Below, piece after piece: positions 3,125 through 23,669 of a stretch of 26,627 nt of DNA. A program made the position numbers and the translations under genes. The stretch comes from an uncultured virus (IMG/VR IMGVR_UViG_2778261562_000001) (Duplodnaviria; Heunggongvirae; Uroviricota; Caudoviricetes). The stretch lies in IMG/VR virus record IMGVR_UViG_2778261562_000001; one strand, given 5' to 3'. Under the pieces are notes generated by a model. That model ran no database searches and was not told where the DNA came from. It worked only from the letters and a program-made list of their open reading frames with translations. Within the stretch, counting starts at the first letter, position 1. Each line of letters opens with the position of its first letter.

Positions 3125-3134
3125 TAATTCTGTT

Positions 3135-3416: not shown

Positions 3417-3426
3417 CGATTATTCT

Positions 3427-7150: not shown

Positions 7151-7864
7151 TTAGTTGAACCCTCCATTGAAATCAGGTAAATCACCATCAGGAACACCAC
7201 CACTCATACCAGGCACATTAGGTGCAGGAGCTTTAGTAGCTTCTAGTTTATCGTAAGCAGTGTTAACATCTAGGTTAATACAAGGTGAATTATCAGCAGC
7301 CTTTCTTTCAATGAAATTCGGCCCAAGAGGAAAAGTTACATTTGCATTAAAATAAGTAAGCTTGATATAATAACTATGCTTAGCATAAAGTTTTTTACCA
7401 TCAGCATCAACTTTCTCATTAAATGCTTTTCCAATGAGTTCAAAATATTCTGAGAAATTAGAAGCACCGGCTCCTAATTTAACTTCAGGAGTAATAGGCC
7501 CAATAGCTTGTTCATATATATGAGCAATACGAGTATTGAAACCATCATACTTACTTTGGAACTTTTCATCTGTTTGGTCAGGAGCAAATTCAAAATGGGT
7601 ATAACCACTATTTTTGCCCGACTTAAACACAAACTGCAAAATTGGAACTTTACTACCGTCTTTCTTTTCAAAAGCAGGATTAAAAACTACATTAACAAGT
7701 TTAGCAGTAGGAAACTGCCAACCTCTAGGAAACATAGCATTACGTTCAATTTGTTTAGGAACAGAAATAGGTAGTAAGTTACTACTCTTAGTTTCAGATG
7801 TAATTCCAAATATTACACCACCTGTTCCAGCAGCTTTTTGTTCAGTGTTCGCTTCTTCAGCCAT
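7151..7864 (-). CDS. Probable single-stranded DNA-binding protein
   Basis: Position next to primase; beta-rich core; Gly/Pro linker ending DGDLPDFNGGFN, similar to the SSB DDLPF tail. Confidence 0.55.
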   Translation of the reverse strand: MAEEANTEQKAAGTGGVIFGITSETKSSNLLPISVPKQIERNAMFPRGWQFPTAKLVNVVFNPAFEKKDGSKVPILQFVFKSGKNSGYTHFEFAPDQTDEKFQSKYDGFNTRIAHIYEQAIGPITPEVKLGAGASNFSEYFELIGKAFNEKVDADGKKLYAKHSYYIKLTYFNANVTFPLGPNFIERKAADNSPCINLDVNTAYDKLEATKAPAPNVPGMSGGVPDGDLPDFNGGFN

Positions 7865-7959: not shown

Positions 7960-8517
7960 TTAAAGTTCGTCAAGATTGACAGAAGCAGGGTTATTCCCTG
8001 GAAGGTCAGCACCGGCAGGGGCAGGAGCATCAGCTGTATTAGCATCAGCTTCTTGAGCAGATTCACCAGATTCAGCTTTCTCAGTCTTTTCTACAGTTTC
8101 AACTTCAGCAGAACCAAGTTTAATGTATTTGTTACCTGATTCATCTTCTTCTACTTCATCAGTAAGAGGATAAGTAACAATAGCATCTTCTTGACCTACC
8201 ATAGTCCAAGCACCGGCACTAGAGAAACCAAAATAAGAACCATTTTTAGAAAGTTTGCTACCGTTCTTTTCTACAGTTTTAGTAGAAGTACTACCGTCTT
8301 CTTCTGTAACTTCTTTAGTTTTGATAAAACCTTTACCAACATAGAATACACCTGCTTGTTCAGGATGCTCTGCAATGTCTACATAATCTCCATCAGTCAA
8401 TCCAAGGGCTCTAGCAGCAGCATCACTAATTTTAAGTGAACCTTTAGCAGAATTTGCTACAAGTACTGAACCTACTTCTTTAACTGGTCTTGTGTTTGTT
8501 AAACTTCTAAATTTCAT
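7960..8517 (-). CDS. Hypothetical protein, possible AbrB-like/beta-barrel nucleic-acid binder with acidic tail
   Basis: LKISDAAARALGLTDGDYVDI resembles the AbrB/SpoVT LGL..GD.V signature; N-terminus MKFRSLTN. Confidence 0.7.
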   Translation of the reverse strand: MKFRSLTNTRPVKEVGSVLVANSAKGSLKISDAAARALGLTDGDYVDIAEHPEQAGVFYVGKGFIKTKEVTEEDGSTSTKTVEKNGSKLSKNGSYFGFSSAGAWTMVGQEDAIVTYPLTDEVEEDESGNKYIKLGSAEVETVEKTEKAESGESAQEADANTADAPAPAGADLPGNNPASVNLDEL

Positions 8518-8600
8518 AATAAAAAAATTAAGGATTAATAAATAATGAATAAATGTTTAAAAATGTTTGTCTTTGATAAATAGGTTAAGACTAATAAGAT

Positions 8601-9494
8601 TTAGGATACTTCTTCGTGAGTAATATCTTCTATAACTTCTGTACCATCTTCTGTATAAGAAGAGTTAGCACCAAGTTCAGAAGGTGTCATTACACCGTTA
8701 ATTAAATCATCTGCAATCTCTCTTGCACCAATCATATATGCTCTAGCATCAAGCATTCTTTTAGGATGCTTTTTATAATTGGCTTTTTCCATAAGACCAG
8801 CTTGTACAGCTTCACTTATAGTAAAAGAACTTGTAGTAGTGATTTCTTTATAATTCCCATCAATACGTTTAACAAGACGGCTAAACTTATAAGTAGTTCT
8901 AGTGTCTATAGGACGTTTAGCACTATTCATAGGTTGTTCAGCTAAAGTACCTTTATGAATAACTTCATACTGTTTTTGACCTGCTACTTCTGAAACAACA
9001 GGTCTACCTGCTTCATCCGTTTTAACGTATTCATAAATAGTAACATAATCTTCTGTTCTTTCAGCTATAATACCTTCTCTTAAAAGAATAGCTCTAACTA
9101 AATGAACACCCAAAGAAGGTTTACCATCTATAGCATAAATTTGAGATAGACTAGCACTTAAAGGTAATTTAAGTTCTTGACCCATCATCATGGCTACAGT
9201 AAAATCTTCTTTAGTTTTATGAATACAAAGTTTACTTCCTACCATAATCTCACCTAATGCAAGCATCCTAGCAGGAGTACTAAAATCTTTGTAATCAAGA
9301 GCACTAATATCAGCTTTAGAAAGACTTTTAAATTCTTCTTTAGCTACAGCAACTTTATTAGAGGGTTTAGAATCTTTAATAGAAGAAGAAGCCTTAGTTT
9401 CGCTATTAGTGTTAGCTTTACTTTCAGCTTCTTCTTTACTTCCATTCCCTTTAACGTTACTTAAATCTGTCATTTTCTCGTTTTCTTCTGACAT
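8601..9494 (-). CDS. recT: RecT/Red-beta-like single-strand annealing protein
   Basis: IYAIDGKPSL and AGL....YKKHPKRMLDARA....ARE...D...G..TPSEL motifs; acidic tail. Likely start is ATG 9494 (MSEENEK) rather than TTG 9569. Confidence 0.72.
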   Translation of the reverse strand: MSEENEKMTDLSNVKGNGSKEEAESKANTNSETKASSSIKDSKPSNKVAVAKEEFKSLSKADISALDYKDFSTPARMLALGEIMVGSKLCIHKTKEDFTVAMMMGQELKLPLSASLSQIYAIDGKPSLGVHLVRAILLREGIIAERTEDYVTIYEYVKTDEAGRPVVSEVAGQKQYEVIHKGTLAEQPMNSAKRPIDTRTTYKFSRLVKRIDGNYKEITTTSSFTISEAVQAGLMEKANYKKHPKRMLDARAYMIGAREIADDLINGVMTPSELGANSSYTEDGTEVIEDITHEEVS

Positions 9495-9554
9495 TATTAG
9501 TATTTTGTTATTAGTTATACAAATCTCTGTTGTATTGCCGTGTCTAATAACACC

Positions 9555-9566
9555 GTAAATATACAA
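9555..9566 (-). promoter_or_regulatory. Candidate promoter element TTGTATATTTAC, a variant of the Bacteroidota -7 box TAnnTTTG
   Basis: Intergenic, upstream of the recT-like gene; 11/12 identical to the element at 15194-15205. Confidence 0.45.
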
Positions 9567-9628
9567 CAAAATTCTCTTTTACTACTATATAGAGAATAAA
9601 AAATGTGCTTTTTAACACAAAAAACGCT

Positions 9629-10735
9629 CTATATTTCACTTAATGCTTCATCCTCATCGAAATTATCAGCGATTTCCTTAGATGCCTGATTAAAATCGTA
9701 AGGAATGATGCTACCTTGTGAAAGATTGTTCAAAAACCATATTGAACCAATATTACCATGCCTAGCTTTTAACAAAAGCAAATGCATAACTCTTAATGGT
9801 CTTCCTTCATGCATCACAATAGTAGGAAGTTTATTAGGCCCATATTGTTCTAATTGCAATAAAGCAGGTTGAGTAAGAACAAAAACAGAATCACAAGCAT
9901 TATACAATTGTCCTTGAGCATAAATATCAGATTTTTTAGGAAACTGTAAAGAAGGAGTTAAAAGACGCTTAGGGTCTTCAATATTATTGTTAAGTTGACC
10001 TACAAGATTAACCATAGCTTCACAACGTTTTCTAATAGCAATAACTACTTTACCAACGTTAGCCATTAAACTCATAACATCTTTCTCTTCCAACTTCTCT
10101 ATTAATAGAGTATGGTCAATATTTACTATGATTCTAACTTTAGGATTAATATACCTTTTATGTTTATCCATTTTACAACCTTGATTATAATGATTATAAA
10201 GTTGTAGAACAGTATTATAGATAACTACCATATTAGTAGGTATCTCATAAAAGATAATATTCTTATTAGAATAATACTCCATCCATGCATCTACTTGAGC
10301 AAGTTCTTCATCAGTAAGAGTATTATATTCTCCTGTAGCTTTATTGTACTCACTACTTAACAAATAGTTATAGCTAAGACCTAAATCCTTAGCACATACT
10401 CTAAGAACTTCATTATGACTAGACATTTCAAAGCAAAAATGAGCAATTAAAACACCAAAATTAACACCACTATTAATTTTAGGATTTATAAAATCATCAC
10501 TAAGAAGACCAAGAAGATAAGACTTACCACTACCTGATAATCCAGCCCAAAGATTTACATTATTAAATCTAAAGTACTTTCTCATAGCAATGTTAAGACT
10601 ATCAAACTTAGATTTTACTCCAAGTTGTTCTCCTGACCTTTCTTCTTCTATCATTTGTCTAGCTACTTTAACAGCTTCTCTAGCTGAAATAGGTGTAGCT
10701 ACAATCGGTTGTTCCTTCTCTAAATTGTCTGCCAT
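9629..10735 (-). CDS. dnaB: DnaB-like replicative helicase (SF4)
   Basis: Walker A GLSGSGKS, FEMS, IDHTLL, GQLN and KARHG motifs. Confidence 0.9.
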   Translation of the reverse strand: MADNLEKEQPIVATPISAREAVKVARQMIEEERSGEQLGVKSKFDSLNIAMRKYFRFNNVNLWAGLSGSGKSYLLGLLSDDFINPKINSGVNFGVLIAHFCFEMSSHNEVLRVCAKDLGLSYNYLLSSEYNKATGEYNTLTDEELAQVDAWMEYYSNKNIIFYEIPTNMVVIYNTVLQLYNHYNQGCKMDKHKRYINPKVRIIVNIDHTLLIEKLEEKDVMSLMANVGKVVIAIRKRCEAMVNLVGQLNNNIEDPKRLLTPSLQFPKKSDIYAQGQLYNACDSVFVLTQPALLQLEQYGPNKLPTIVMHEGRPLRVMHLLLLKARHGNIGSIWFLNNLSQGSIIPYDFNQASKEIADNFDEDEALSEI

Positions 10736-10738
10736 TAT

Positions 10739-11290
10739 TTAAAAATCTGTATAAGTATTACTAGTAATTGCAGTTGACTCACTTTCCTTTCTTAAAGGGC
10801 GAAAGGCTTTCCATTGTTCNGATTGCAGAAACTTAGTAAGACCTATAGTAATTAAATCCTCTTTAATAGCGAATTTAATATCTTTAAGAACTTCATTGTG
10901 NTCATCAATACTTCCATTAATTTTACCAATATAAATATTAGCAAATTCAATCCTATCCATAGCAGTTAAAGGAATATTGACACCATTACTTATAATAAAA
11001 GATGGATATATATTATATATTTCATCTGTAATAGTATGCTTATTAGCATACGCTTCTACAAACTTCTTACCTAATTTATATCCATTAGTAGTTTTAACCA
11101 TAAAATTTCTATTAATAAGGTCATCTACTAAGTATTGAGGTATCATACTACCATCTTCTGTAGGAAAGGCATTTTTGTACTCTTTAATCAAATCCACTCT
11201 ACTCTTATAAATAAGATGTAATAGTAAGAATTGGGTTTGTGTAAGTCTATGTTTAATCATAAACTTTACATAAGGCTCTTCTGTAATCAT
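10739..11290 (-). CDS. Hypothetical protein, possible winged-helix initiator or helicase loader
   Basis: LTQTQFLLLHLI...DDLINRNFM...GYKL is wHTH-like; EIYNIYP segment; directly upstream of dnaB. Start is 11305 or 11290. Confidence 0.65.
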   Translation of the reverse strand: MITEEPYVKFMIKHRLTQTQFLLLHLIYKSRVDLIKEYKNAFPTEDGSMIPQYLVDDLINRNFMVKTTNGYKLGKKFVEAYANKHTITDEIYNIYPSFIISNGVNIPLTAMDRIEFANIYIGKINGSIDXHNEVLKDIKFAIKEDLITIGLTKFLQXEQWKAFRPLRKESESTAITSNTYTDF

Positions 11291-11291
11291 G

Positions 11292-12734
11292 TCATAAAAC
11301 GTCATTTAAGTTAAACTCTTCTTTTAATTTAGCATTGAAGTCAATTTCATCTACACTATCAACCCAAAACATAGGATTAGTAGATTTAGACTGTCTTGTA
11401 TGTAGCCATTTCTCATCAACTGTATCTTTAATATAAATATTAATGATAAGCTTTTGACCATCTTTAATAAAAGCATCTTTAGGTTTACGTTTAATCCTAC
11501 CACTTCGTTGACGTTGTTTATTAAAGTTAGAAGTACTACTAATAATAATACCAATAACAATATCATCAACATCAAAACCAGTATCTAAAGAAGAGCCTGT
11601 AGCTATTACTTTAGATATACCTGTTTTAATACGATTNATAGCACGTTTTTTAAGTCTAGTAGAACCAAACTTAATAAGTTTACCAGTCTTAGGACTAGGA
11701 AGTAATTGAGTAGGAAGATTAGAGTGATAAGCAACACAATAACCCGGTATTTGTTTATTAAGAAANTCTTCTACTAAATCAGCAGCTTTAGTCTTTTCAG
11801 CAAATACCATAGTTTTAACTCCTTTATATTTCTCAATAATATCTAAAGTAGCTTGTACNTTAGATTCNGAAACATAAAGCATATCTTTCCTAAGTCTAAT
11901 AGCTTTCATCAAAGTAACAGCATAATTCATAATNTTATTAGGATTCCAAAGCTCTTCAATTTGAGCTTCATTAGAATTACGCATATCTAAATTACTTCTC
12001 CATCCTTTATACTTAGCCCAACCAAAAAGAAAGTGAGCAGCTTCATATTGTTTACCTTTGTATGTACCACCGTTTAAACAACTAGTAGCTAAATCAAGGT
12101 TACGATCGAATTTGTTAAGATGTGTTTTAATAACATCTGAATATTTATCATAAAGCTGCTTTTCTTTCTCATTTAGTTCTATACCTAAATTAAACTCTTT
12201 ATAATCAGATATAAAACCTTTTTCAATAGCTTCCTTTTCAGATATAGTATCTATTACAGGATAGAGGTCTTTATAAACTTTATGACGACCTTTAGGGTCT
12301 TCATAAGTTGCGGTTAAAGCTAAATGATTAGTAGCTCTAATTAATTCGCCATTAATAGTAGTGATAAGACCTTCACCTAAAAATAAATGAAGCTCATCTA
12401 CAACTAATGTATTAGTAGATGCTTTTATCTGATTTTGTAGAACATAAAAAGCACTGAATACAGTTACCCGTTTTAAATCTTTAACAGGTAACTGTTTTCT
12501 TAACTCATCTTCCCATTGTTTAATAAGAGCTTCTAAAGGAACAAGAACTATAATATTATGAAGAGGCTCTTGTAAAAGTCTTTTCATAATAAGAACAGCN
12601 GTATAAGTCTTACCTACACCAGTAGCATANTTTATNCAACCTTTNCTATCTTTATCAGCACCGTATTGNGAACTNTTGAACCACTTATCAGAACCTATAA
12701 GTTGCCTTTCAAGTTTAAGAGCATCTACTTTCAT
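11292..12734 (-). CDS. Superfamily 2 DExH helicase
   Basis: ATGVGKT, VVDELH, LTAT, TGFDV and QRSGRIKR motifs. Confidence 0.9.
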   Translation of the reverse strand: MKVDALKLERQLIGSDKWFXSXQYGADKDXKGXIXYATGVGKTYXAVLIMKRLLQEPLHNIIVLVPLEALIKQWEDELRKQLPVKDLKRVTVFSAFYVLQNQIKASTNTLVVDELHLFLGEGLITTINGELIRATNHLALTATYEDPKGRHKVYKDLYPVIDTISEKEAIEKGFISDYKEFNLGIELNEKEKQLYDKYSDVIKTHLNKFDRNLDLATSCLNGGTYKGKQYEAAHFLFGWAKYKGWRSNLDMRNSNEAQIEELWNPNXIMNYAVTLMKAIRLRKDMLYVXESXVQATLDIIEKYKGVKTMVFAEKTKAADLVEXFLNKQIPGYCVAYHSNLPTQLLPSPKTGKLIKFGSTRLKKRAXNRIKTGISKVIATGSSLDTGFDVDDIVIGIIISSTSNFNKQRQRSGRIKRKPKDAFIKDGQKLIINIYIKDTVDEKWLHTRQSKSTNPMFWVDSVDEIDFNAKLKEEFNLNDVL

Positions 12735-12743
12735 AATGTATTA

Positions 12744-13187
12744 TTAATCTTCTCTATTAAAAGTTCTACCACCTCTACAAGTAGGCCCCATACCAAACTC
12801 TATAGATGTTAAATCTGTTAGAGTTCTATTACATTTCATACATTTACCTGTATGACTAAGTTCAACAACTTCAAGAAGTTTATCTATCTGATTAGTGTAG
12901 ATTAAATTAAGAATCATAGCACCACCTTTATGAGAATCTTTAGTAAGATTAATCTTNTTAATGTTATCATCAAAGATATAATAAAAACCTTTAAAAGTTT
13001 GATACATACCTTCAATAGCAATGCCTACAATCCTAGTTTTCCTTTTAGTATCTGCAAAGATTTTATAAGTATAATCAACGCCTGTTCTAATAGATTTACA
13101 AACTATTACACAACTTACAGATTCTTCACGATTTCTAAGATGTTCAGATAGAAGTTCAATAGCTTCTTTACTAATTTGTTTTCTCAT
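12744..13187 (-). CDS. DUF6011-like zinc-binding protein
   Basis: C-terminal GKCMKCNRTLTDLTSIEFGMGPTC; SIRTGVDYTYKI near the N-terminus. Confidence 0.75.
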   Translation of the reverse strand: MRKQISKEAIELLSEHLRNREESVSCVIVCKSIRTGVDYTYKIFADTKRKTRIVGIAIEGMYQTFKGFYYIFDDNIXKINLTKDSHKGGAMILNLIYTNQIDKLLEVVELSHTGKCMKCNRTLTDLTSIEFGMGPTCRGGRTFNRED

Positions 13188-13488
13188 GCTCTACTTTTTT
13201 AAAATGTTCAGCTAAATAAGGGTTACGAATCGACACCTCTACTCCTTCTATCGGGGATAGGTAAAGTACCTCTACTATCATATCTCCTAAGTCAGCTTCA
13301 TAACACTTTTCTACTTTAATCTTTTTCCCTTTAATAAGAGAATGTGAGTTATTGTACCTTACATGATTTTCATCTAAGGTAACAGTATCGCCTACATTAA
13401 AAGTAGGAACATAAACAACAGCATCAGCACTTTGTTCAGGTTTTTCTTTAGTCTCTTCTTTAGAAGAGGTTAAACTTTTTAATTTCAT
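13171..13488 (-). CDS. Hypothetical protein, possible SH3/KOW-like fold
   Basis: FNVGDTVTL motif; N-terminus MKLKSLTS. Confidence 0.7.
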   Translation of the reverse strand: MKLKSLTSSKEETKEKPEQSADAVVYVPTFNVGDTVTLDENHVRYNNSHSLIKGKKIKVEKCYEADLGDMIVEVLYLSPIEGVEVSIRNPYLAEHFKKVEHEKTN

Positions 13489-13504
13489 AATTATTTATTT
13501 AAAA

Positions 13505-14129
13505 TCACTTCGTCCAAAACGGCTCAACACTATAATCAACATCAATAGTTACACCATCTAAATACCTATTAAAAGTATTTATCATTAATAAACGTTTAAC
13601 TTCAGGAAATGACAATCCTGAAGTAGTTTCTCCTGAATCATTAGTAAAAGATAATCCTTTAGGATTAGCAGCAATCCATTTTTTCCATTCTTCACTTTTA
13701 CCATCTAAATACTTCTTATGTTTATCGACAATTTCATCGTGTACCCATTTAAGTATTACTGCTGGTATATTATGCTTTTTAATATAGTTATATAAGTCAA
13801 TAGTAGCTTCTTTAATAGCATCAGCTTGAGTACCTTGAATACGTATATTTCTTGCTTCGTTTTGTTCTTTACTTACAGCTCTAAAGTTTTCTNTNTAATT
13901 AAGTTTACCTTTAATAACTGANATAATAAGAGGAAACCAAGCTCTAGAATTAGTACGTTTATTCAATATAACATAACCATTAGCACTAGCAAAGTTAGCA
14001 GCATCTTCAACCATTTTAAATACTTTAGGAAACAATGCCTTAATAGTATCTATAACAATTTGACCTTCTTCTTTACTTACTCTTAGAGACTTACCAGCTT
14101 TAGATGCATACATACCATATATTGTACCA
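13505..14129 (-). CDS. polA: DNA polymerase family A, exon 2
   Basis: (F)GTIYGM end of motif B, RNIRIQGTQAD and motif C WVHDEIV. Joins exon 1 in frame, giving 804 aa spliced. Confidence 0.92.
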
Positions 14130-14368
14130 CAGTTTGTTAACGTAAAGGCTCTTTATCCTTTACTTCTTATACTTTACCATTGTATAAGCTCGGACTATAT
14201 CATCATCCCATAAGGATGTCCTGCGCTCGTGGGTATTTACCAACTTCAACATTACTTGTTAAGTCTCCATTACCTAGTCTCTGAACCTTACTAATATTTC
14301 TATTAGTCTTGGATGCTGATTGTCCTTTAGGCGGATTTCCAGCAATTCACAGGATTGTCATATTTACA

Positions 14369-15172
14369 TTACTGTAAATAGCGTCTGATTTGTTCTTCTT
14401 TTCTATTTAAATATAAATTAGTATTATTATAAAAATTATTATAGATAAGTTTAATAGTTGGTTTACCTCCTAAAAAATAAAAATCAATTGTTGTACTATT
14501 AGTAGCTTTATATTTAGCAGAAAATTTAATATTTTTTTCCCTACAAAAATCAGCTAATTGTTTAGCTAAATTATACGAACCTGTAGTTATTTTAAATCGT
14601 TCTTGACTAAAACTACCATCAGCATCGAATAAACCTCTCAATATATTCCAATTAATAGGTTGAGTAAACATTAAAGTTTTTGATTTTTTAGTTGTTAAAC
14701 CTCTATAATATAAATAATTATAAGCACCTTTATGTGAAAATGTAGCTACATAATGTATAGCTGTAATTCTTTCTACTTTAGTAATAGATACACCTTCTCC
14801 AATAAAGTTCTTAAAATTTTCTATAATTTCTAAATCATTACTACCAATTTGAATTTGTTTTTTAGTAGGATGTAAATAACCGTCTCCTGCAATAAAACCT
14901 ACCCAATAGTCAATTTCAGATTTATCCTTATTTATAAAAGGATTTTTAAATACTTTTTGAGTTGCATAACCTCTTCCTTTAGTTTTCAAATTATTAGCTT
15001 TAAAAACTCTAGCAACAGTTTTTTCGTGTAAATTAAATTTATTTGCAACAGCTTTAATAGTATGTAATTCTAAATAAGAATTATACATTTCTTTAACAGG
15101 ATAATCAATATTTGAAAACTGATTCTTTCCTTCTGAATTTTTGACTTGATTTGTTAATGATTTCATTTTCAT
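14369..15172 (-). CDS. Intron-encoded double-motif LAGLIDADG homing endonuclease with N-terminal HTH
   Basis: YWVGFIAGDG and ILRGLFDADG motifs; TIKAVANKFNLHEKTVARVF is HTH-like. Confidence 0.9.
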   Translation of the reverse strand: MKMKSLTNQVKNSEGKNQFSNIDYPVKEMYNSYLELHTIKAVANKFNLHEKTVARVFKANNLKTKGRGYATQKVFKNPFINKDKSEIDYWVGFIAGDGYLHPTKKQIQIGSNDLEIIENFKNFIGEGVSITKVERITAIHYVATFSHKGAYNYLYYRGLTTKKSKTLMFTQPINWNILRGLFDADGSFSQERFKITTGSYNLAKQLADFCREKNIKFSAKYKATNSTTIDFYFLGGKPTIKLIYNNFYNNTNLYLNRKEEQIRRYLQ

Positions 15173-15193
15173 AATATTACGTTTAATTTAATT

Positions 15194-15205
15194 GTAAAGA
15201 TACAA
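15194..15205 (-). promoter_or_regulatory. Candidate intron-internal promoter for the endonuclease (TTGTATCTTTAC)
   Basis: Ends 21 nt before ATG 15172; near-identical to 9555-9566; resembles the Bacteroidota -7 box. Confidence 0.45.
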
Positions 15206-15216
15206 ATTTTTCTTTA

Positions 15217-17006
15217 AACGTCATTGGTTTGAAGTCAGTTCTTACTTTACCTCCTTCAGTCAATTTATTAACAATATATGATTGTGATAAAAGTATAAGG
15301 TCATTGATAGCATCATTACAATCTTTGATACTATCTTTATTACTTAATCCATTTCCTTTTGTTTTTAAATGTTCTAATTGTTTTTTCTTGTTCTTAGCTC
15401 TATAAGCATAGATATTTCTCCAACATGCTTGAGCCACATAACTATGCATATCACCTTTAGATATTTCTAAAAGTTTCATATCTTTAGATAGAGAACTCAT
15501 TACTATAAGTTCTGCACCACTATAATCATGTGTACCAATACTCCAACCTTCAGGAGCAATAAAACAGTTACGCATAGCTTTAGCCCAAGAAGCTTTACTA
15601 GGTATATTTTGAGCATTGATTTTATCAGGCTCTTTTTTACCTCCACCAGATTGCATACGACCAGTATCAGCAGCAGCTTGTCTATAAATAGAATGCAGTT
15701 TACCTGTAATAGGGTTTATCTTATTAATAACATTAGCACCAAAAGTACTAATGGCAGTAGATAAAGACCTATGGTCTAACAACATATCTATAAATGGTAT
15801 CATTATAGAGTTAGGTAGCATACTTTTATAAAGAATAAAATACTCTTCTTTAGTAGTATAACTATAATCTCTATTAAGTTTACCATTCTTTTTAAACTGT
15901 GGTATAAGTAGATTTTCAGAACTATCCATAACAGGTTCTTCCAATCTACCAAACAGTTCTAAGATTTGAGTATCACTAGAGTAATTAATATTATTAGGAG
16001 AATCTTTAATCTTAACAGTAGTTTTAGCTTTACTACCTAGATAAGTATTAGTCTTCATAGGTTCTCCAAATAGATTTAAACTATTTACAGTACCATCATC
16101 ATTAAATAAATCATATTCAGGATTATGAATACGTTTATTATCCCATTTACCCCCTTTAAGATAAACACTTTTATCAGGTTCATTCTTAAACTTAGTATCC
16201 CTAAGTCTACGAACCTCTTCATCCATCTTACATTCTAACTCAAATCTATCTGCTTTATTTTTATCATAAACTTTAAGCCAACCTTCCTTATCAAAATCCC
16301 AACCTTCAACTTCAGCTTCAGCTATAATAGGTATAAGTGGAAATTCTATACGACTTAATAGATTAACCATCTTATACCTATTTAAATGATGTATCTGTCT
16401 ATTCTTAATATGGAACAGCTTATCAATATCACCTATAGTATAATAGATGTGTCTAGGTAAAACTTTAAATTTATGAACATCACAACCTATAAATTCTTCT
16501 CTAATACTTTTATCACTTTGTTCAGGATAAACATTAAGATAACGTTGAAATAAATCACTAAGAGCAAAACCTATACCGGACTTCATATAAAGTCTTTGTT
16601 CAGCAATCATAGTATCATATACATACGACAAAGCCGTAGCATCCTCTGTGAGCGTGAATTTTAGGTCAAACTTGATATTATGGCCTAGAAATCTAAAGAA
16701 CTGCTGTGCATAGCGTATGTACTTACGGAAGGTACAATAAGGAGTATGAAAAAGGAATTGAGTATGTTGGTCACCAAGTACTTTTAAAATAGTACTATTC
16801 ATCCAAGCATCAAGGCCATTAGATTCAACATCATAACCAATATACTTACAATCATTATTACTCTCTTGTTCAAAAGAACGTTTAGCAGCCCAATTCTTAA
16901 ATAGTTTAAAAGTACTATCATTATCAGGCAAAACAGTAACATCAGGACATATATTTTTAGTGTAATATTCCAAATGATAAGGACAATTAGTTATAAAGTA
17001 AATCAT
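15217..17006 (-). CDS. polA: DNA polymerase family A, exon 1 (3'-5' exonuclease and polymerase motif A)
   Basis: ExoI YDVESNG, ExoII GHNIKFD, ExoIII YTIGDI, TGRMQS, NAQNIP, motif A DYSGAEL, DMHS, start of motif B RTDFKPMTF. Unspliced, it reads on to TAA at 15183. Confidence 0.93.
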
Positions 17007-17009
17007 ATA

Positions 17010-17258
17010 TTAAAAATTTGTAGTAGATTCTGAAAATTCAACATCTATAAAAGTAAGACCTTTACTTTTTTGGTCTTTTAAATAAGTTATAAAATTATCA
17101 CAACCTGAAGCTTTTTTAAAATAGATAGTTCCAGTCTTGTTTACAAAACTAATTCTAACACAACTTTTAGAAGGAGTATTATCAAACATAGCACAAGCAT
17201 TATCTGTTACAAAAGTTCTTATAGATACAACCTTATCAAGGTTAATATAATTAGCCAT
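17010..17258 (-). CDS. Hypothetical protein
   Basis: 82-aa ORF, tightly packed in the operon. Confidence 0.7.
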   Translation of the reverse strand: MANYINLDKVVSIRTFVTDNACAMFDNTPSKSCVRISFVNKTGTIYFKKASGCDNFITYLKDQKSKGLTFIDVEFSESTTNF

Positions 17259-17260
17259 AA

Positions 17261-17566
17261 TTAAAAAGGTATATAGTTAGTAGTTCTTTTATTCTCAAGT
17301 CTATGAAATTCCATTAGAATCATATAAGTGAGTAGAGTATCATAATCAATCTTAGTAGGATAAAGAATATTATAATATGCAATAGCATCTACAATAGGAA
17401 CTTCTTTATACTCTAAGAATTTGATAAGTATGGGTATCTTAAAAGTAACAGGATAAGTCATAAATTGTTTAAACTTATTCACATCTTTTTTAAGATACAC
17501 ATACAACCATTCTCTAAACTCCTTAAACGTATTGGAACTTTTGGGTAGGGTTTCGTTCAAATTCAT
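17261..17566 (-). CDS. Hypothetical protein
   Basis: 101-aa ORF ending in IPF. Confidence 0.7.
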   Translation of the reverse strand: MNLNETLPKSSNTFKEFREWLYVYLKKDVNKFKQFMTYPVTFKIPILIKFLEYKEVPIVDAIAYYNILYPTKIDYDTLLTYMILMEFHRLENKRTTNYIPF

Positions 17567-17843
17567 CTATAAGGAAATTTATCTCTTCTTTAACAGGTTT
17601 ATCAAATGTTTTATATTCCTCCATGTGAGCATAAAAGTCTTCTTCACCTCTAGTATTAGTTTCTTCTAATCTTTCCGCATAGTTCATTGCAAAGATTCTT
17701 AAACCTCTTTCACCTTGGTCATATTTGATATAGTCTTCTAAACTATCACCAGCAATAACAGTTACAAATGTATCTACAACAGTAGACCATACAAGATAAT
17801 ATTTTTTATCATCTTTAGTTGTTTTAATAATTATGTGAGCCAT
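17523..17843 (-). CDS. Hypothetical protein
   Basis: 106 aa; contains YLVWSTVVD; abuts the upstream stop codon. Confidence 0.7.
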   Translation of the reverse strand: MAHIIIKTTKDDKKYYLVWSTVVDTFVTVIAGDSLEDYIKYDQGERGLRIFAMNYAERLEETNTRGEEDFYAHMEEYKTFDKPVKEEINFLIDEFERNPTQKFQYV

Positions 17844-18149
17844 TTAAGTACGTTTTAAGTGATTAATTATAGCTTGTTCAATTGCTTCTTCATTAGTAGT
17901 AGAATCTATCTTCATAAACTCTTCTAAAGTAAGACCATAAGCTATACCTTCTTTTTTAAGTTTAGGTACAACTACAGGTAGAAAGTAATGATGCCATGAA
18001 GCNTCACCCCATAGCTCAAGTATATGCATCTCATATTCTCTAATACCACCTACAAATATAAATCTATTTGCAGAGTACTTATATTTAAGAATATAATAAA
18101 TACCATTATACTTATATCGAATCGTAGTAAATCTTCTTTCAAATTCCAT
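17844..18149 (-). CDS. Hypothetical protein
   Basis: ORF with likely ATG start at 18149, just after a terminator. Confidence 0.65.
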   Translation of the reverse strand: MEFERRFTTIRYKYNGIYYILKYKYSANRFIFVGGIREYEMHILELWGXASWHHYFLPVVVPKLKKEGIAYGLTLEEFMKIDSTTNEEAIEQAIINHLKRT

Positions 18150-18153
18150 AATC

Positions 18154-18204
18154 AAAAAAGCACCTCTTCACTATAAGTTCCCACAACTTACAGCTAGAGG
18201 TGCT
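18154..18204 (-). terminator. Intrinsic terminator with extended stem
   Basis: AGCACCUCU...AGAGGUGCUUUUUU with inner UAAGUU/AACUUA helix, downstream of the dda-like gene. Confidence 0.75.
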
Positions 18205-18223
18205 CTACTTAAATTACAACAAC

Positions 18224-19609
18224 CTAACCATTACGTCTTGCTAATATTATATTCTCATTAGTCATACGACTTAAAGCAACATAAGCTAGACGTTTTCTTT
18301 CTTCAATAGTAGAATTACCATAGATATTATTTAAGTTAACAGCAGAATTAACATAAGTACTACCTTGAGATTTATGAACAGTACTACCATAACCATAATA
18401 CAAATCTCTACTTGCTACAAGGTCAGAATAATACTTGGCAGTTAAACCTGTACATTGACCTTTATAGATATTATAGAGTAATAAATGATTTTCTTTAAAA
18501 GCATAGAATGCTTTAAAAAGTCTTCTGATTCTTTGAGCACTAGCTAAAAGACTATCATAAACTTTAATATACTCATGGTATTGATAAGGGTCTACAACAA
18601 ATATTTCAGTCTTAGAACCTTCAGGAGTTCTCATAGTAATATAATACCCCGGAATTTTAAAAGAAGATTCTCCTTTTACAAAACTCTCAATAACATAATC
18701 TTCACTGTTTTCAATAAGAACACCTGTCTTAGTATAAACAGTATTATGACCAATAAGNGGCTCTCCTTCAGCAAAAGGNTCTTCATTAGGAAGTTTAAAA
18801 ATATGATTCCTAATACCTTTACACCATGCTTCTACACTCTTATTAGTCCAAGCAAGATACTTAATATAATCTTTATTACTTAAGTATTCAGGGTCAGTAT
18901 ATTTGTTTAATATAGCAGAACCAAAATCTACATTATTAACAACATGATAACCCATATCAGTAGTAAGATTAGTACCTTTAGCTAATAATTTAGATAACAT
19001 TGTATCGTTACCTGTTTCAATATCCCTTCTACATAGTAATAGTAACCTAGTATTAGGATTTTCAAAAGATTGTCTAACAACAGTTTTAAGTGTAAACTTA
19101 TGCTTGACATTTACAAAGACTTTACTAACATGCTCATTAACAGGTGGCAATTGATATGAATCACCTAGAAATAATATCTTAACATTATATGCAGCAGCTC
19201 TTTTAACAATAAGGTCAAAAGCATCAGCATTGAGCATACTAGATTCATCTATAATTAATATTTTATAACTACCAATAGTCTCTTCACCCAAAGGGTCAAA
19301 TTGAGGCTTATTAATATCAAACTTTTCTAAAAGTACATTAGGTCTTAAACCTAATATTCTTTGAACAGTTTCGCTCTTAAATCCAGTAATGTTTTGTATA
19401 GTTTTCTTAGCCTTATGAGTAGGAGCAGATACACCTACACCACCAGTACCAATTTCTTTAATGAAATATCTCATTACTGTAGTCTTACCTGTTCCAGCAG
19501 GCCCTTCTAGGACTGCAAACAGGTCATTAGCGTCATCAAATGGCAAATCAATCCATTTAAATAGACCATCTAATGCTTTCTTTTGACATTCAGTATGTTC
19601 TATAGTCAT
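18224..19609 (-). CDS. dda: Dda/RecD-like SF1B helicase
   Basis: GPAGTGKT, APTHKA, IIDESSM, GDSYQLPPV, TVHKSQGST and YVALSR motifs. Confidence 0.92.
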   Translation of the reverse strand: MTIEHTECQKKALDGLFKWIDLPFDDANDLFAVLEGPAGTGKTTVMRYFIKEIGTGGVGVSAPTHKAKKTIQNITGFKSETVQRILGLRPNVLLEKFDINKPQFDPLGEETIGSYKILIIDESSMLNADAFDLIVKRAAAYNVKILFLGDSYQLPPVNEHVSKVFVNVKHKFTLKTVVRQSFENPNTRLLLLCRRDIETGNDTMLSKLLAKGTNLTTDMGYHVVNNVDFGSAILNKYTDPEYLSNKDYIKYLAWTNKSVEAWCKGIRNHIFKLPNEXPFAEGEXLIGHNTVYTKTGVLIENSEDYVIESFVKGESSFKIPGYYITMRTPEGSKTEIFVVDPYQYHEYIKVYDSLLASAQRIRRLFKAFYAFKENHLLLYNIYKGQCTGLTAKYYSDLVASRDLYYGYGSTVHKSQGSTYVNSAVNLNNIYGNSTIEERKRLAYVALSRMTNENIILARRNG

Positions 19610-19611
19610 TA

Positions 19612-19995
19612 TTATAAATATACGTTCAACATTTCTTTTTTAAAATCTTTAAGAGTTAAATGTTGTTTAGCTTTTAAACCAACAGTAACATCTTTAATAG
19701 CCAGTCTCCATCTATTATTTAAGATAAATTCACTAAAATTATGAGATACTTTAGCTTTAGTAATTTCAGTATTCTCTAATATATCTTTAATATCTTTAGG
19801 AAGACTATCAATAACTCCTAATAAATTATTACTAATACCGCCTTGGTAATTTTTACTAATAGTAGCATTAAGTGATAACGGAATGTACACAGTAGTATTA
19901 AAATTACTGTGCTTAACTTTTTTAGATTTAACCTTTTTCTTTTTAATAGGTTTATCTATTTTTCTTTTGGTGTTAGTAAGCGATTTTAGTTTCAT
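19612..19995 (-). CDS. Basic hypothetical protein
   Basis: 127 aa; starts MKLKSLTN followed by a lysine-rich tract. Confidence 0.7.
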   Translation of the reverse strand: MKLKSLTNTKRKIDKPIKKKKVKSKKVKHSNFNTTVYIPLSLNATISKNYQGGISNNLLGVIDSLPKDIKDILENTEITKAKVSHNFSEFILNNRWRLAIKDVTVGLKAKQHLTLKDFKKEMLNVYL

Positions 19996-20245: not shown

Positions 20246-20333
20246 TAGATATTAACTTATATATGACAAAGATAATTAAAACAATGAAATAGAGGACGAT
20301 ACAATATCCTAAAATATCAACACCCTTATACAT
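20238..20333 (-). CDS. Small single-TM protein (31 aa); not in the track
   Basis: MYKGVDILGYCIVLYFIVLIIFVIYKLISNE; overlaps both neighbours by 8 nt. Confidence 0.62.
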   Translation of the reverse strand: MYKGVDILGYCIVLYFIVLIIFVIYKLISNE

Positions 20334-20526
20334 CGTGAACCTCTTGAATGATGCGTTCAGAGTTTTCAATAAAACGTCTCTTAACTTCAGCTATAATCTT
20401 TTTACCTTCAGCTAGTGTAAATTCTTTAGTAATAGTATCAGCAAAATCTCTAGCTAAATGTATTTCAGAACTTAGACCATCTGTAATAGAAGGAAGCTTT
20501 TTAAGTTTGTTTGTAATACTAGTCAT
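20326..20526 (-). CDS. Hypothetical protein
   Basis: 66-aa helical-looking ORF in the operon. Confidence 0.65.
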   Translation of the reverse strand: MTSITNKLKKLPSITDGLSSEIHLARDFADTITKEFTLAEGKKIIAEVKRRFIENSERIIQEVHDV

Positions 20527-22376: not shown

Positions 22377-23669
22377 TTAATAATTGGTAAAATCAGGAAT
22401 ACCATCTTCTTCAATCTCTTCTGTAATAAAAGCGATATTATCAGCAGGAGAAGGGATATTAGTACGTTTTCCTTTATAAGTAATATTTAACCACTTATAA
22501 GTACCGTCAAGTTTTTTAATCAATTCAGCATAGTGTTGATTAGACCTAAGTACTTGACCGGTTTTAAGAACAATGTGATTAACAGGTAATTTACTTTCCT
22601 CTTCAATAGTTTCACCACTATGAATATTATGAGGTTTAAGAAAGCCAGTCTGTAATAACTCTAGTACATCCTTTAAAGGGAGTAAATGATTTACTAACTC
22701 TTTCTCTCTAAATCTCATTTGATAACCTTTCTCAAATCCTAAGAATACTAATATAGCGCCTTTTTCAAGATGTCCAAAAGGCTTTTCTACTACATAACCA
22801 GTAATATCTTTAGGAAATACTATAGGATACTCAACAGCTGAACTAACTCCTTGATTGCTTACAATCTTAGTAAGATTATTTGCATGTGATTCAAAGTAAT
22901 ATACATCACCATTTAAAGTAGAAACTGTTATACCTTCACCAAGAAGACGATTGTCTTCAGTTATTAAAGCAGGAGAATTAACTCTCCAACCAGTAGCAAT
23001 TATCTTAGAATGAATATGTATTACTACATCCCCTTTAGTATAATAATTCTCAACCATAGNAGTGTTACTATTAGTATCAACAACTTTAATATCTTGCTTA
23101 ANCATTTCAGTACGAANATCTTCATAAACAGTAATAACATTNTTATCTACTTGAAATTTAAANGCATTAANACTCATAGGAAGATACTTATCACCACCCA
23201 TTTCTCTGAACATCATAAGTCTTTTNTTATAGAANTGAGAGAATCTATATCTATCATCTTTATAATATTTNACAGATTGAGTAAATTCAGGAACAGGAAC
23301 AGTAAAAGTATCATTAACTACAAATGTATGGTCTTCAGTAATAGGTATATCACTTATAGCAATACTTCCTTTTTTAATAGCTTTCATCAACTCTTTAACA
23401 TTGAGAGTATAATTAATAGTAGAGCTCTTATCTATTAGTTCTATAGCTGACATACTACTAGATGCTCTATCTACAACAAAATCAATTTTAGAAGCTTTAT
23501 GGCTTATCTTACCTGTACATCTTAGTACAAGACCAGCAGGTAAAGTAAGTTCAGGTTTAAATAAACAAGCAGTACTAACATGAATACGTATGTTAGGAAT
23601 GAAGATAAGTTCAATAGGCTTATCAGGAGTTTTAAAATATTCTTTATTAACAAAGTTTAAAGGTATCAT
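22377..23669 (-). CDS. Hypothetical protein, about 430 aa
   Basis: Long ORF; likely start at ATG 23669 (MIPLNF). No motif recognised. Confidence 0.8.
   Translation of the reverse strand: MIPLNFVNKEYFKTPDKPIELIFIPNIRIHVSTACLFKPELTLPAGLVLRCTGKISHKASKIDFVVDRASSSMSAIELIDKSSTINYTLNVKELMKAIKKGSIAISDIPITEDHTFVVNDTFTVPVPEFTQSXKYYKDDRYRFSXFYXKRLMMFREMGGDKYLPMSXNXFKFQVDXNVITVYEDXRTEMXKQDIKVVDTNSNTXMVENYYTKGDVVIHIHSKIIATGWRVNSPALITEDNRLLGEGITVSTLNGDVYYFESHANNLTKIVSNQGVSSAVEYPIVFPKDITGYVVEKPFGHLEKGAILVFLGFEKGYQMRFREKELVNHLLPLKDVLELLQTGFLKPHNIHSGETIEEESKLPVNHIVLKTGQVLRSNQHYAELIKKLDGTYKWLNITYKGKRTNIPSPADNIAFITEEIEEDGIPDFTNY

What the first reader, a model, noticed from the sequence alone, without database searches (positions are those of the whole stretch)
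8494..19995. Four unrelated proteins share an N-terminal peptide MK[LFM][KR]SLT[NS], including the intron homing endonuclease
Seen: MKFRSLTNT (8517), MKLKSLTSS (13488), MKMKSLTNQ (15172) and MKLKSLTNT (19995). Codons differ (Ser AGT/AGT/TCA/TCG; Leu TTA/TTA/TTA/CTT; Thr ACA/ACC/ACA/ACT), so conservation is at the peptide level rather than a DNA repeat. The rest of each protein is unrelated, and each motif is followed by a polar linker. Known: T4 internal proteins use a short N-terminal capsid-targeting sequence. Inference: this may be a phage-specific address tag (capsid packaging, replisome docking or degron). The mobile endonuclease may have acquired it, which could deliver it to co-infecting genomes. 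I know no description of this motif.
Basis: partly seen in the sequence, partly recalled or inferred. Interest (0 to 1): 0.85.

Follow-up and report, generated by a model that had tools for sequence, protein, structure and literature searches.

The report
Shared start peptide on phage proteins
Four otherwise unrelated replication-region proteins of an uncultured marine crAss-like phage, one of them a selfish intron endonuclease, begin with the same eight residues, which look like copies of the conserved N-terminal arm of a large uncharacterised protein family and may act as a shared docking label.

Summary
Four minus-strand genes start MKFRSLTN, MKLKSLTS, MKMKSLTN and MKLKSLTN, against 3e-5 expected. 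The similarity is in the peptide: 15 of 32 identical residues share a codon, 16.0 expected. The protein bodies are unrelated.

The motif is not a free phage-specific tag. In orf 7960-8517 it is the family's own N-terminal arm (hydrophobic-x-x-x-LTN-x-RP-x-K). The family has 281 clusters, and a related form of the arm is seen in 128 of the 150 members listed. The AlphaFold2 model is a beta-barrel with the arm confidently placed.

The other three carriers are an SH3-like protein after the polymerase, a basic protein before the Dda-like helicase, and the LAGLIDADG endonuclease of a group I intron in PolA. They carry look-alikes; the one modelled has its copy on a disordered linker.

In relatives the look-alikes tend to follow the local version of the arm (KFR in G001, MKLNIL in L127; permutations 2-24 of 720). 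The endonuclease is absent from seven relatives, and its homologues have variable N-terminal extensions.

Best reading, confidence 0.45: mimicry of a docking peptide. The partner is unknown. I found no description of the motif.

The parts
7960..8517 (-). orf8517, 185 aa. It has an N-terminal arm (MKFRSLTNTRPVK), a beta-barrel core (residues 18-141) and an acidic disordered tail. It belongs to a large uncharacterised family and is the likely original owner of the motif.
   Evidence: sequence; 281 clusters at E<=1e-3. N-terminal conservation; pLDDT 88.8, with residues 1-17 at 85-92; only weak fold matches (SSB OB folds, cradle-loop barrels, DPBB).
8494..8517 (-). Motif copy 1: ATG AAA TTT AGA AGT TTA ACA AAC = MKFRSLTN
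13171..13488 (-). orf13488, 105 aa. It has the motif (MKLKSLTS), then a K/E-rich linker predicted to be disordered (residues 1-25), then an SH3-like beta domain. In relatives it always lies directly after the polymerase gene.
   Evidence: pLDDT 47-65 for residues 1-30 and 84-88 in the core. Z 6-6.7 to PsaE, KOW and Tudor-type SH3-like barrels.
13465..13488 (-). Motif copy 2: ATG AAA TTA AAA AGT TTA ACC TCT = MKLKSLTS
14369..15172 (-). LAGLIDADG homing endonuclease, 267 aa. Its N-terminal extension MKMKSLTNQVKNSEG precedes the conserved body.
   Evidence: PF14528, E 1.2e-9; phrog_4645, E 1.9e-24; 14 homologues at 37-57% identity to the window protein in alignment A2, with variable N-terminal extensions.
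15149..15172 (-). Motif copy 3: ATG AAA ATG AAA TCA TTA ACA AAT = MKMKSLTN
   Evidence: Contigs of three DNA runs from two studies cover this place with no listed difference.
14130..15216 (-). Group I intron in the family A DNA polymerase gene. The boundaries are inferred from the exon alignment and are good to 1-2 nt. The endonuclease ORF starts 44 nt inside the intron.
   Evidence: RF00028 at 14172-14387, 64.4 bits (gathering score 50), E 1.6e-15; exon junction ...DFKPMTF|GTIYGMYASKAGK against the uninterrupted polymerases of relatives.
15217..17006 (-). PolA exon 1 (3'-5' exonuclease domain and the first part of the polymerase domain)
13505..14129 (-). PolA exon 2
19612..19995 (-). orf19995, 127 aa. 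It has the motif (MKLKSLTN), then a very basic linker (TKRKIDKPIKKKKVKSKKVKH), then a small domain. It lies directly upstream of the Dda-like helicase.
   Evidence: no homologue in the word-indexed search other than the protein itself; a homologue in relative G001 at the same position (28% identity, E 2e-13) that starts MKFRDITSKPTKK.
19972..19995 (-). Motif copy 4: ATG AAA CTA AAA TCG CTT ACT AAC = MKLKSLTN
18224..19609 (-). Dda-like SF1 helicase (context gene)
   Evidence: AAA_30, E 2e-25; phrog_325, E 1.9e-74.
8601..9494 (-). RecT-like annealing protein (context gene). Its start is probably the ATG at 9494, not the TTG at 9569.
   Evidence: phrog_4171 and phrog_561, E about 7e-9; starts of the orthologues.
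7151..7864 (-). Conserved 237-aa protein with an acidic C-terminus (...DGDLPDFNGGFN), function unknown (context gene)
   Evidence: No Pfam, PHROG or PDB sequence match.

Best explanation
The eight-residue start is a short linear docking peptide. Its original owner is the orf8517 family. These are small beta-barrel, probably nucleic-acid-binding, proteins of marine crAss-like phages, and their extreme N-terminus (hydrophobic-x-x-x-L-T-N-x-R-P-x-K) is the best-conserved part of the family.

Three other replication-module proteins display a look-alike of this arm at their N-terminus. They are an SH3-like protein after the polymerase, a basic protein before the Dda-like helicase, and the intron's LAGLIDADG endonuclease. 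In the one I modelled, the arm sits on a disordered linker.

I infer that all four peptides fit one receptor site. That site is either on the orf8517 barrel itself or on a common replisome or recombination partner. The first option would resemble T4 gp32, whose N-terminal Lys-Arg-Lys-Ser-Thr peptide docks on the core of the neighbouring gp32. Either way the mimics would be recruited to the same nucleoprotein complex. The endonuclease would have gained the local version after invading this phage.

Shown: the motif, its peptide-level conservation, family-wide conservation in orf8517, the look-alikes and their tendency to follow the local version in relatives, and the recent arrival of the endonuclease.

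Inferred: docking, the receptor, and recruitment.
For: 1. Not chance and not a DNA repeat. Four motif starts are seen against 3e-5 expected. Codon identity among identical residues is 15 of 32 against 16.0 expected from codon usage. Ser uses both codon families.

2. In orf8517 the peptide is ancient and functional. The family has 281 clusters. Of the 150 listed, 128 have [LIVF][TS][NG] within the first 16 residues and 80 continue x-[RK]-P. The AF2 model built from 130 sequences places residues 1-17 with pLDDT 85-92 although they are coil, while the C-terminal tail scores about 63. So the arm contacts the fold, in cis or in trans.

3. The look-alikes are conserved within their own families despite low overall identity. 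The orf19995 homologue in G001 (28% identical) starts MKFRDITSKPTKK. Orf13488 orthologues start MKILTGNQ, MKIKQLNK, MEFETIKNV, MELRNINK and MENKFRNLGG.

4. The version tends to be shared within a genome:
- G001: MLKFRSLTN, MKFRDITS and MENKFRNLGG.
- L127: MKLNILTN and MKLNILNK, on a 66-aa gene.
- L125: MKFLTN and MKILTG, both two residues shorter.
- L126: FQSLTNV and FETIKNV.
Pairing the 8517 and 13488 N-termini by genome beats 718 of 720 permutations at 9-10 residues and 714 of 720 at 12. With L124 in place of G001, it beats 696-710 of 720.

5. In orf13488 the first 25 residues are predicted to be disordered before an SH3-like domain. That is the usual layout of a linear motif.

6. The endonuclease is absent from 7 relatives with intact polymerases. 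Four homologues start directly at the conserved body (MSKYE / MSIYE) and four more carry only 2-3 extra residues. Five of the six with longer extensions score in the top 0.6-11% of 332 control N-termini for likeness to 8517-family starts.

7. The published parallel for an N-terminal peptide docking on a neighbour's core is the gp32 LAST motif (passages of PMC12893549).
Against:
- The receptor is unknown, and I could not inspect model coordinates to see where the arm lies.
- The orf8517 fold has no convincing match (Foldseek E>=0.013, VIA Z<=3.7), so 'DNA-binding' rests on weak likeness and gene neighbourhood.
- Mimicry is not universal. In L124 and G002 the orf13488 orthologue lacks the extension, and G002 (79 kb, 89% complete) has no look-alike among 85 ORFs.
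- The co-variation test uses only six genomes, they are related, and I chose the test after seeing the data.
- In the per-genome scan the best look-alikes in L123, L125 and L128 reach only the top 1.5-4% of cross-genome scores.
- The scores of the endonuclease homologues are only suggestive, and their genomic contexts could not be fetched.
Confidence: 0.45

Rival explanations
1. Expression signal. The first codons, or the nascent peptide they encode, were selected for efficient translation initiation or early elongation in a Shine-Dalgarno-poor, Bacteroidota-type host. Unrelated genes then converge on one good start.
For: No Shine-Dalgarno-like sequence stands upstream of the genes. A at -3 and AT-rich leaders are common, and AAA is the second codon in all four. 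The endonuclease must be translated from inside an intron. That Bacteroidota use Kozak-like contexts is recalled, not read here.
Against: - Only 4 of 43 window ORFs use this start.
- The Ser, Leu and Thr codons differ, so an RNA-level signal is unlikely.
- In orf8517 the segment is conserved across 281 clusters together with RP-x-K and is confidently placed on the fold.
- Versions differ between related phages, with indels.
Confidence: 0.15
2. Neutral mosaicism. The first ten or so codons were copied between gene starts by illegitimate recombination or gene conversion, for example when new genes captured a resident start. They persist without a function of their own.
For: The endonuclease is a recent arrival with a variable extension. 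Word-indexed and BLAST searches found no homologue of orf19995 except one in G001. The orf13488 orthologues of L124 and G002 do without the extension. orf8517 and orf13488 share AGTTTAAC.
Against: - There is no excess of shared codons (15 of 32 against 16.0 expected).
- Ser switches between AGY and TCN, which needs selection or independent origin.
- The upstream DNA is not alike.
- The N-terminus of the orf19995 family is kept at 28% overall identity.
- Neutral copies should decay at the peptide level too.
Confidence: 0.15
3. Degron or stability tag. The N-terminal peptide is read by a host or phage protease or adaptor (ClpXP/ClpAP-type N-terminal recognition), so that a set of replication proteins is turned over, or protected, together.
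For: In three carriers the peptide is exposed at the N-terminus; in the one modelled (orf13488) it sits on a disordered linker. N-terminal ClpX recognition motifs on a phage replication protein (lambda O) are known (recalled, not read here).
Against: In orf8517 the arm is packed on the fold rather than free. The window shows no protease or adaptor. Within-genome matching between phages points to a phage-encoded reader rather than a conserved host protease, though the hosts are unknown.
Confidence: 0.1
4. DNA-contacting arm. The peptide together with the basic linker touches DNA directly, like the N-terminal arms of some repressors, and is shared because all four proteins act on DNA.
For: Three of the four carriers have a plausible or known link to DNA: an endonuclease, a very basic linker in orf19995, and a barrel weakly like AbrB, B3 and MraZ in orf8517. 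For the fourth, orf13488, the only link is its position right after the polymerase gene.
Against: The conserved core S-L-T-N is polar and uncharged and is not a known DNA-binding arm. The orf13488 linker is acidic as well as basic (KEETKEKPEQSADA). Lineage-specific versions are hard to explain by contact with generic DNA.
Confidence: 0.1
5. Capsid-targeting sequence, as in T4 internal proteins. The peptide would load the proteins into the prohead for delivery with the DNA.
For: The layout is similar: a short N-terminal peptide on diverse proteins (T4 CTS; passages of PMC3012670). crAss-like phages do package cargo proteins (recalled, not read here).
Against: All carriers lie in the replication module. 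In G001 the three look-alikes are all there, and none is on the opposite strand, which carries the large genes I took, without annotating them, to be the structural module. No T4-type [LI]-x-E cleavage site (motif recalled) follows the peptide. orf8517's arm is part of the fold.
Confidence: 0.03

Closest known systems
T4 gp32 N-terminal 'LAST' peptide (Lys-Arg-Lys-Ser-Thr, residues 3-7), which docks on the core of the adjacent gp32 (PMC12893549, abstract and passages read)
   Same: A very short basic and Ser/Thr-bearing peptide at the extreme N-terminus of a phage replication or recombination protein. The carrier likewise has a central core and, in orf8517 and in 93 of 150 family members, an acidic C-terminal tail. 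The model places the arm on the core.
   Different: There is no sequence or fold relationship: no gp32 match in the fold searches, and no zinc-binding OB core. ssDNA binding and cooperativity are untested. In T4 the peptide is not known to be copied onto other proteins; that copying is the new element here.
Hub-docking terminal peptides shared by unrelated proteins: sliding-clamp-binding tails of T4 gp43, gp55 and gp33, and bacterial QL[SD]LF clamp motifs (recalled, not read here)
   Same: One short terminal peptide, often on a flexible linker, lets unrelated proteins use one hub. Selfish and accessory proteins can acquire it.
   Different: The peptide here is N-terminal and polar (K-x-K-S-L-T-N), with none of the Q-L-x-L-F hydrophobic pattern. 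No clamp gene was seen among the 26 longer window ORFs scanned. The hub is unknown.
Capsid targeting sequence (CTS) of T-even internal proteins (PMC3012670, passages read)
   Same: A conserved N-terminal peptide of about ten residues is the only thing shared by a diverse protein set.
   Different: Carriers of the CTS are virion-internal defence proteins loaded into the scaffolding core, and the CTS is cleaved off (cleavage recalled). The carriers here are replication-module proteins, and one of them has the peptide packed on its fold.
LAGLIDADG homing endonucleases in group I introns of phage DNA polymerase genes
   Same: The endonuclease (PF14528) and the intron (RF00028) are ordinary members, inserted in a conserved polymerase motif region.
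   Different: The endonuclease carries an N-terminal extension that imitates a resident phage protein's N-terminus. I know of no such case and found none in the three literature searches.

Membership tests
T4-type capsid targeting sequence | Carriers are virion-internal proteins encoded with or expressed like head genes | tested here: not met
   All four carriers lie between the RecT-like, polymerase and helicase genes. In G001 the 3 look-alikes among 73 ORFs are all in the replication module. Virion content itself cannot be tested here.
T4-type capsid targeting sequence | Prohead-protease cleavage site ([LI]-x-E, recalled) directly after the peptide | tested here: not met
   No [LI]-x-E within residues 8-25 of the four proteins (sequences). 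The site definition is recalled, not taken from a call.
gp32-type SSB with N-terminal cooperativity peptide | N-terminal basic and Ser/Thr peptide, (K/R)3(S/T)2, at residues 3-7 | tested here: inconclusive
   The motif K2-x-[KR]4-S5-x-T7 has two basic and two hydroxyl residues but is not KRKST.
gp32-type SSB with N-terminal cooperativity peptide | Zn-containing OB-fold core homologous to gp32 | tested here: inconclusive
   No gp32 chain is listed in either fold search. The best rows are bacterial SSB OB folds at E 0.013-0.1 with TM about 0.2 and cradle-loop barrels at Z<=3.7. A missing row does not exclude the fold.
gp32-type SSB with N-terminal cooperativity peptide | Cooperative ssDNA binding that depends on the N-terminus | not testable with these tools
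   Needs gel-shift or single-molecule assays with and without residues 1-16.
Sliding-clamp-binding motif (QL[SD]LF / QLxLxL, recalled) | Q-L-x-L-[FL] hydrophobic pentapeptide or hexapeptide | tested here: not met
   None of the four N-termini has it. Some family members read Q-L-T-N-V, which lacks the second and third hydrophobic positions.
LAGLIDADG homing endonuclease (orf 14369-15172) | LAGLIDADG domain match above the curated threshold | tested here: met
   PF14528, 38.7 bits against a cut-off of 22.5, E 1.2e-9. GDG and DADG columns are invariant in 15 sequences.
Group I intron (14130-15216) | Covariance-model match above the Rfam gathering score, and an interrupted host gene whose exons join in frame | tested here: met
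   RF00028, 64.4 bits against 50. The exons rejoin to ...KPMTFGTIYGMY..., as in 5 uninterrupted relatives. Splicing itself is not shown: no RNA run holds the region.
Cradle-loop barrels (AbrB/SpoVT, B3, MraZ, DPBB) for the orf8517 core | Fold match with a clear score, or sequence-profile match | tested here: inconclusive
   VIA: Z 3.7 (FUS3 B3), 2.9 (RAV1 B3), 2.5 (SpoVT), 2.5 (MraZ-family 1n0e). PDB profile search: DPBB designs and the Cdc48 N-domain at E 0.013-0.16. All are below the level that can be trusted.

The most novel reading that the evidence does not exclude
Marine crAss-like phages may run a private, co-evolving N-terminal docking code. In this reading the arm of an SSB-like barrel protein plugs into a receptor site, on its neighbour in a nucleoprotein filament or on a replisome hub. 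Accessory proteins imitate the arm to ride on replication and recombination intermediates. So does a selfish intron endonuclease, which adapts its N-terminus to each phage lineage it invades.
Probability: 0.3. Interest if true: 0.8.

Novelty: new variant of a known kind. Interest (0 to 1): 0.62.

Why it matters
If the peptide is a docking label, it gives a handle on the replication machinery of crAss-like phages. That machinery is abundant in the sea and the gut, and almost none of it has been characterised.

It would identify a 281-cluster protein family as a likely hub. It would assign a working hypothesis to two orphan protein families. It would also show a homing endonuclease acquiring a host-specific recruitment peptide, which would be a new way for selfish elements to adapt to a host genome.

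The idea can be tested with short peptides and recombinant proteins, without culturing the phage.

Tried and rejected
- Close relatives in annotated phages: none by megablast. The polymerase finds only crAss-like phages below 28% identity. orf8517 and P0075 have no tblastn match in 'phages'.
- IMG/VR scans with single proteins found nothing. A scan with the endonuclease alignment found only hits at 34% identity or less. A second sub-clade alignment found nothing.
Thirty of the 120 translate to MK.[KR]SLT, mostly not at real gene starts. It was uninformative.
- PHROGs: 0 of 130 family members match any family. Pfam and PHROGs gave nothing for the three non-endonuclease carriers.
- Paralogy of the 8517 and 13488 families: hhalign probability 4.2%. 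Rejected as an explanation.
- ESM Atlas for orf8517: only unnamed clusters at 0.86-0.87.
No verdict.
- Whole genome of the window: not held. The contigs behind L123 and L127 are not held for whole-record search. A genome-wide count of motif genes in this phage was therefore not possible.
- Sequencing runs: no RNA holder listed. In four DNA runs no contig joins across the intron, so no intron-less form was seen, which proves nothing.
- Earlier notes of this scan: nothing for this genome or for this protein. A word search returned C-terminal tags in other genomes only.
- Literature: three full-text searches returned no description of this motif or of an endonuclease imitating a resident N-terminus. 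This is a narrow search, not proof of absence.

Full report
WHAT THE WINDOW IS

The window is 26.6 kb at 27-33% G+C, and all its long ORFs lie on the minus strand. Pfam and PHROGs mark a phage replication module:
- an RIIA-like protein
- an ATP-dependent ligase
- a primase
- a RecT-like annealing protein
- a DnaB-like helicase
- an SF2 helicase
- a DUF6011 protein
- a family A DNA polymerase in two pieces
- a Dda-like helicase

The polymerase finds only crAss-like phages, below 28% identity, among annotated phages. DNA runs that hold the stretch are labelled marine metagenome. The window carries 29 N's. No whole genome is held.

THE OBSERVATION

Four minus-strand ORFs start MKFRSLTNT (ATG 8517), MKLKSLTSS (13488), MKMKSLTNQ (15172) and MKLKSLTNT (19995). 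In a six-frame scan K.[KR]SLT occurs only at these four places. The tripeptide SLT does not occur in any other real coding frame of the window.

Chance is excluded:
- A degenerate DNA pattern gave 3 matches against 0.00 in 100 shuffles.
- Position-specific residue frequencies from 183 ORFs give 3.1e-5 expected motif starts among 43 window ORFs, against 4 seen.
- A motif-blind statistic reached the observed value in 2 of 20,000 shuffles.

The upstream DNA is not alike. Among 32 comparisons of identical residues, 15 use the same codon, against 16.0 expected from the window's codon usage. Ser uses both AGT and TCR. So the likeness is kept at the peptide level.

Without the first ten residues no pair of the four proteins is similar (best E 0.65). 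A profile comparison of two of the families gives a probability of 4.2%.

WHAT THE FOUR CARRIERS ARE

(a) The gene at 15172-14369 is a LAGLIDADG endonuclease (PF14528, E 1.2e-9). It lies inside a group I intron (RF00028, 64.4 bits) that splits the polymerase within ...KPMTF|GTIYGMY....
- The polymerase gene is uninterrupted in seven relatives: L123-L128 and L132, 768-825 aa. The intron and endonuclease are therefore a recent gain. They are seen otherwise only in an identical short contig, L122.

(b) orf13488 (105 aa) always follows the polymerase gene in relatives. Its model has a disordered N-terminus (pLDDT 47-65 over residues 1-30) and an SH3-like core (Z 6-6.7 to PsaE, KOW and Tudor barrels).

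(c) orf19995 (127 aa) precedes the Dda-like helicase and has a very basic linker.
- The word-indexed search found only the protein itself.
- The IMG/VR contig G001 has a homologue at the same position (28% identity, E 2e-13) that starts MKFRDITSKPTKK.

(d) orf8517 (185 aa) lies between the RecT-like gene and a conserved 237-aa gene.

THE KEY RESULT ON orf8517

A profile of eight orthologues found 281 clusters at E<=1e-3 in 1.84 billion representatives. Nearly all are aligned from their first residues. Of the 150 listed:
- 128 have [LIVF][TS][NG] within the first 16 residues.
- 71 have LTN.
- 80 continue x-[RK]-P.
- 93 have a strongly acidic tail.

The motif in orf8517 is therefore the family's own, ancient N-terminal arm, with consensus roughly hydrophobic-x-x-x-LTN-[VT]-RP-x-K.

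The AlphaFold2 model from 130 sequences has pLDDT 88.8. It shows a beta-barrel at residues 18-141 and a low-confidence acidic tail. The arm (residues 1-17) is coil yet scores 85-92, so it is placed against the fold.

The fold has no clear match:
- Foldseek's best rows are bacterial SSB OB folds at E 0.013-0.1 with TM about 0.2.
- The wide structural search gives Z<=3.7 to B3, SpoVT, MraZ-type and riboflavin-synthase barrels.
- The PDB sequence profile touches double-psi barrel designs at E 0.013.
- No PHROG matches any of 130 members.

I call it a probable nucleic-acid-binding barrel, but only on this weak likeness and on its neighbours.

THE LOOK-ALIKES IN RELATIVES

Orthologues of orf8517 start as follows:

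| Genome | orf8517 orthologue starts |
|---|---|
| L124 | MNFKSLTNQKP |
| L126 | MLQFQSLTNVKP |
| L123 | MKLNKLVNTRG |
| L127 | MKLNILTNSRP |
| L125 | MKFLTNVRP |
| L128 | MLFTNITGKK |
| G001 | MLKFRSLTNVRP |
| G002 | MRLKSLTNVRP |

Orthologues of orf13488 start as follows:

| Genome | orf13488 orthologue starts |
|---|---|
| L125 | MKILTGNQ |
| L123 | MKIKQLNK |
| L126 | MEFETIKNV |
| L127 | MELRNINK |
| G001 | MENKFRNLGG |
| L124, G002 | no extension |

L127 has a further 66-aa gene that starts MKLNILNK. G001 thus has three genes sharing KFR-x-[LI], all in the replication module and the only ones among 73 ORFs of the 49-kb contig. G002 (79 kb, 89% complete) has none besides the family member among 85 ORFs.

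Pairing the 8517-type and 13488-type N-termini by genome scores higher than all but 2 of 720 permutations at 9 or 10 residues, and all but 6 at 12 residues. This used the six genomes that have both; I dropped L124 and G002, which lack the extension. With L124 in place of G001, the figures are 10-24 of 720.

These tests are small, the genomes are related, and I designed the test after seeing the pattern. I count it as suggestive.

In a per-genome scan the window stands out: scores of 22-31 against a cross-genome maximum of 16. L127 and L126 have one look-alike each in the top 0.7-1.2%. L123, L125 and L128 reach only the top 1.5-4%.

THE ENDONUCLEASE

Its 14 homologues are 37-57% identical to it in alignment A2. 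They have the same body but variable starts:
- Four start directly at MSKYE or MSIYE.
- Four have two or three extra residues.
- Six have longer extensions: MKFRKLT..., MIKFRKIQ..., MLQFNNVQK..., MKTIVKKPL..., MKTEVIK... and MSDLVFQNV....

Five of those six score in the top 0.6-11% of 332 control N-termini for likeness to 8517-family starts. The unextended ones score at or below the median.

The window's extension, MKMKSLTNQ--VKNS, resembles the L124 family member MNFKSLTNQKPVKNS, yet both Ser codons differ (TCA against AGT). I could not fetch the contigs of these homologues, so I do not know whether each extension matches its own host phage.

Contigs of three DNA runs from two studies cover the endonuclease start with no listed difference.

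INTERPRETATION

The data fit a short linear docking peptide whose original is the arm of the 8517 family and whose copies sit on three other proteins (in the one modelled, on a flexible linker). The closest published mechanism is T4 gp32. Its N-terminal Lys-Arg-Lys-Ser-Thr peptide binds the core of the adjacent protein on ssDNA, and its acidic C-domain binds other replication proteins (abstract and passages of PMC12893549). orf8517 has the same three-part layout but is not related to gp32.

The receptor could equally be another replisome protein.

I give this reading 0.45. The rivals are:
- an expression signal (0.15)
- neutral sharing of gene starts (0.15)
- a degron (0.10)
- a DNA-contacting arm (0.10)
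- capsid targeting (0.03), as known for T4 internal proteins (passages of PMC3012670)

No rival is excluded by experiment.

NOVELTY

Shared terminal docking peptides are a known kind: clamp-binding tails and the T4 CTS. This motif, the family that owns it, its imitation by unrelated replication-module proteins and by an intron endonuclease, and the apparent within-genome matching are not described in anything I found.
- Three full-text searches were run. I read listings and abstracts, plus passages of two papers.
- No PHROG or Pfam family covers the three non-endonuclease carriers.

Earlier notes of this scan describe C-terminal tags in other phages. They are a parallel in concept only, and I did not check them.

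Noticed in passing
window 14130-15216 (-): A group I intron with a LAGLIDADG endonuclease splits the family A polymerase inside the conserved ...KPMTFG.IYGM... region. Seven related phages have the gene uninterrupted. Exon 1's frame runs 10 codons into the intron before a stop. The endonuclease ATG lies 44 nt inside the intron, 8 nt after an AAACGT that could pair with the exon end ACGTT(T).
   Followed up: partly
L133:611-3505 (+): In this more distant relative the polymerase is also in two ORFs (611-2008 and 2762-3505), about 750 nt apart, and the break is at a different place (query residue about 521). It may be a second, independent insertion.
   Followed up: no
L130:1836-3540 (+): The Dda-like helicase of this relative is in two ORFs (1836-2312 and 2623-3540) with a 310-nt gap. 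This could be an insertion, an intron or an assembly error.
   Followed up: no
window 15183-17006 (-) and relatives: The polymerase itself starts MIYF[IV]TN in the window and in L123-L126, L128, L130 and L131 (MIKFITN in L132). This hydrophobic-hydrophobic-T-N start faintly recalls the motif. It is probably just the first strand of the exonuclease domain.
   Followed up: no
window 20326-20526 (-): A 66-aa ORF starts MTSITNKLKK, a weak version (SITN) of the motif without the MK.K part. Its score of 15 is in the top 3.7% of cross-genome controls.
   Followed up: partly
window 7151-7864 (-): A conserved 237-aa protein next to orf8517 ends ...DGDLPDFNGGFN, reminiscent of acidic SSB tails. It has no Pfam, PHROG or PDB sequence match, and it could be the phage's real SSB.
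   Followed up: partly
window 12744-13187 (-): A DUF6011 protein (E 2.8e-10) with a C-terminal Cys-rich motif overlaps the end of orf13488 by 17 nt. An orthologue was found only in L124.
   Followed up: no
window 10820-13922, 18003-18779, 23060-23271: Twenty-nine single N's are scattered in coding sequence, giving X in several proteins. This looks like a consensus of mixed strains.
   Followed up: no
window 830-3124 (-): An RIIA-like protein (phrog_612, E 1.9e-61) with a GHKL ATPase fold match, in a crAss-like phage replication region.
   Followed up: no
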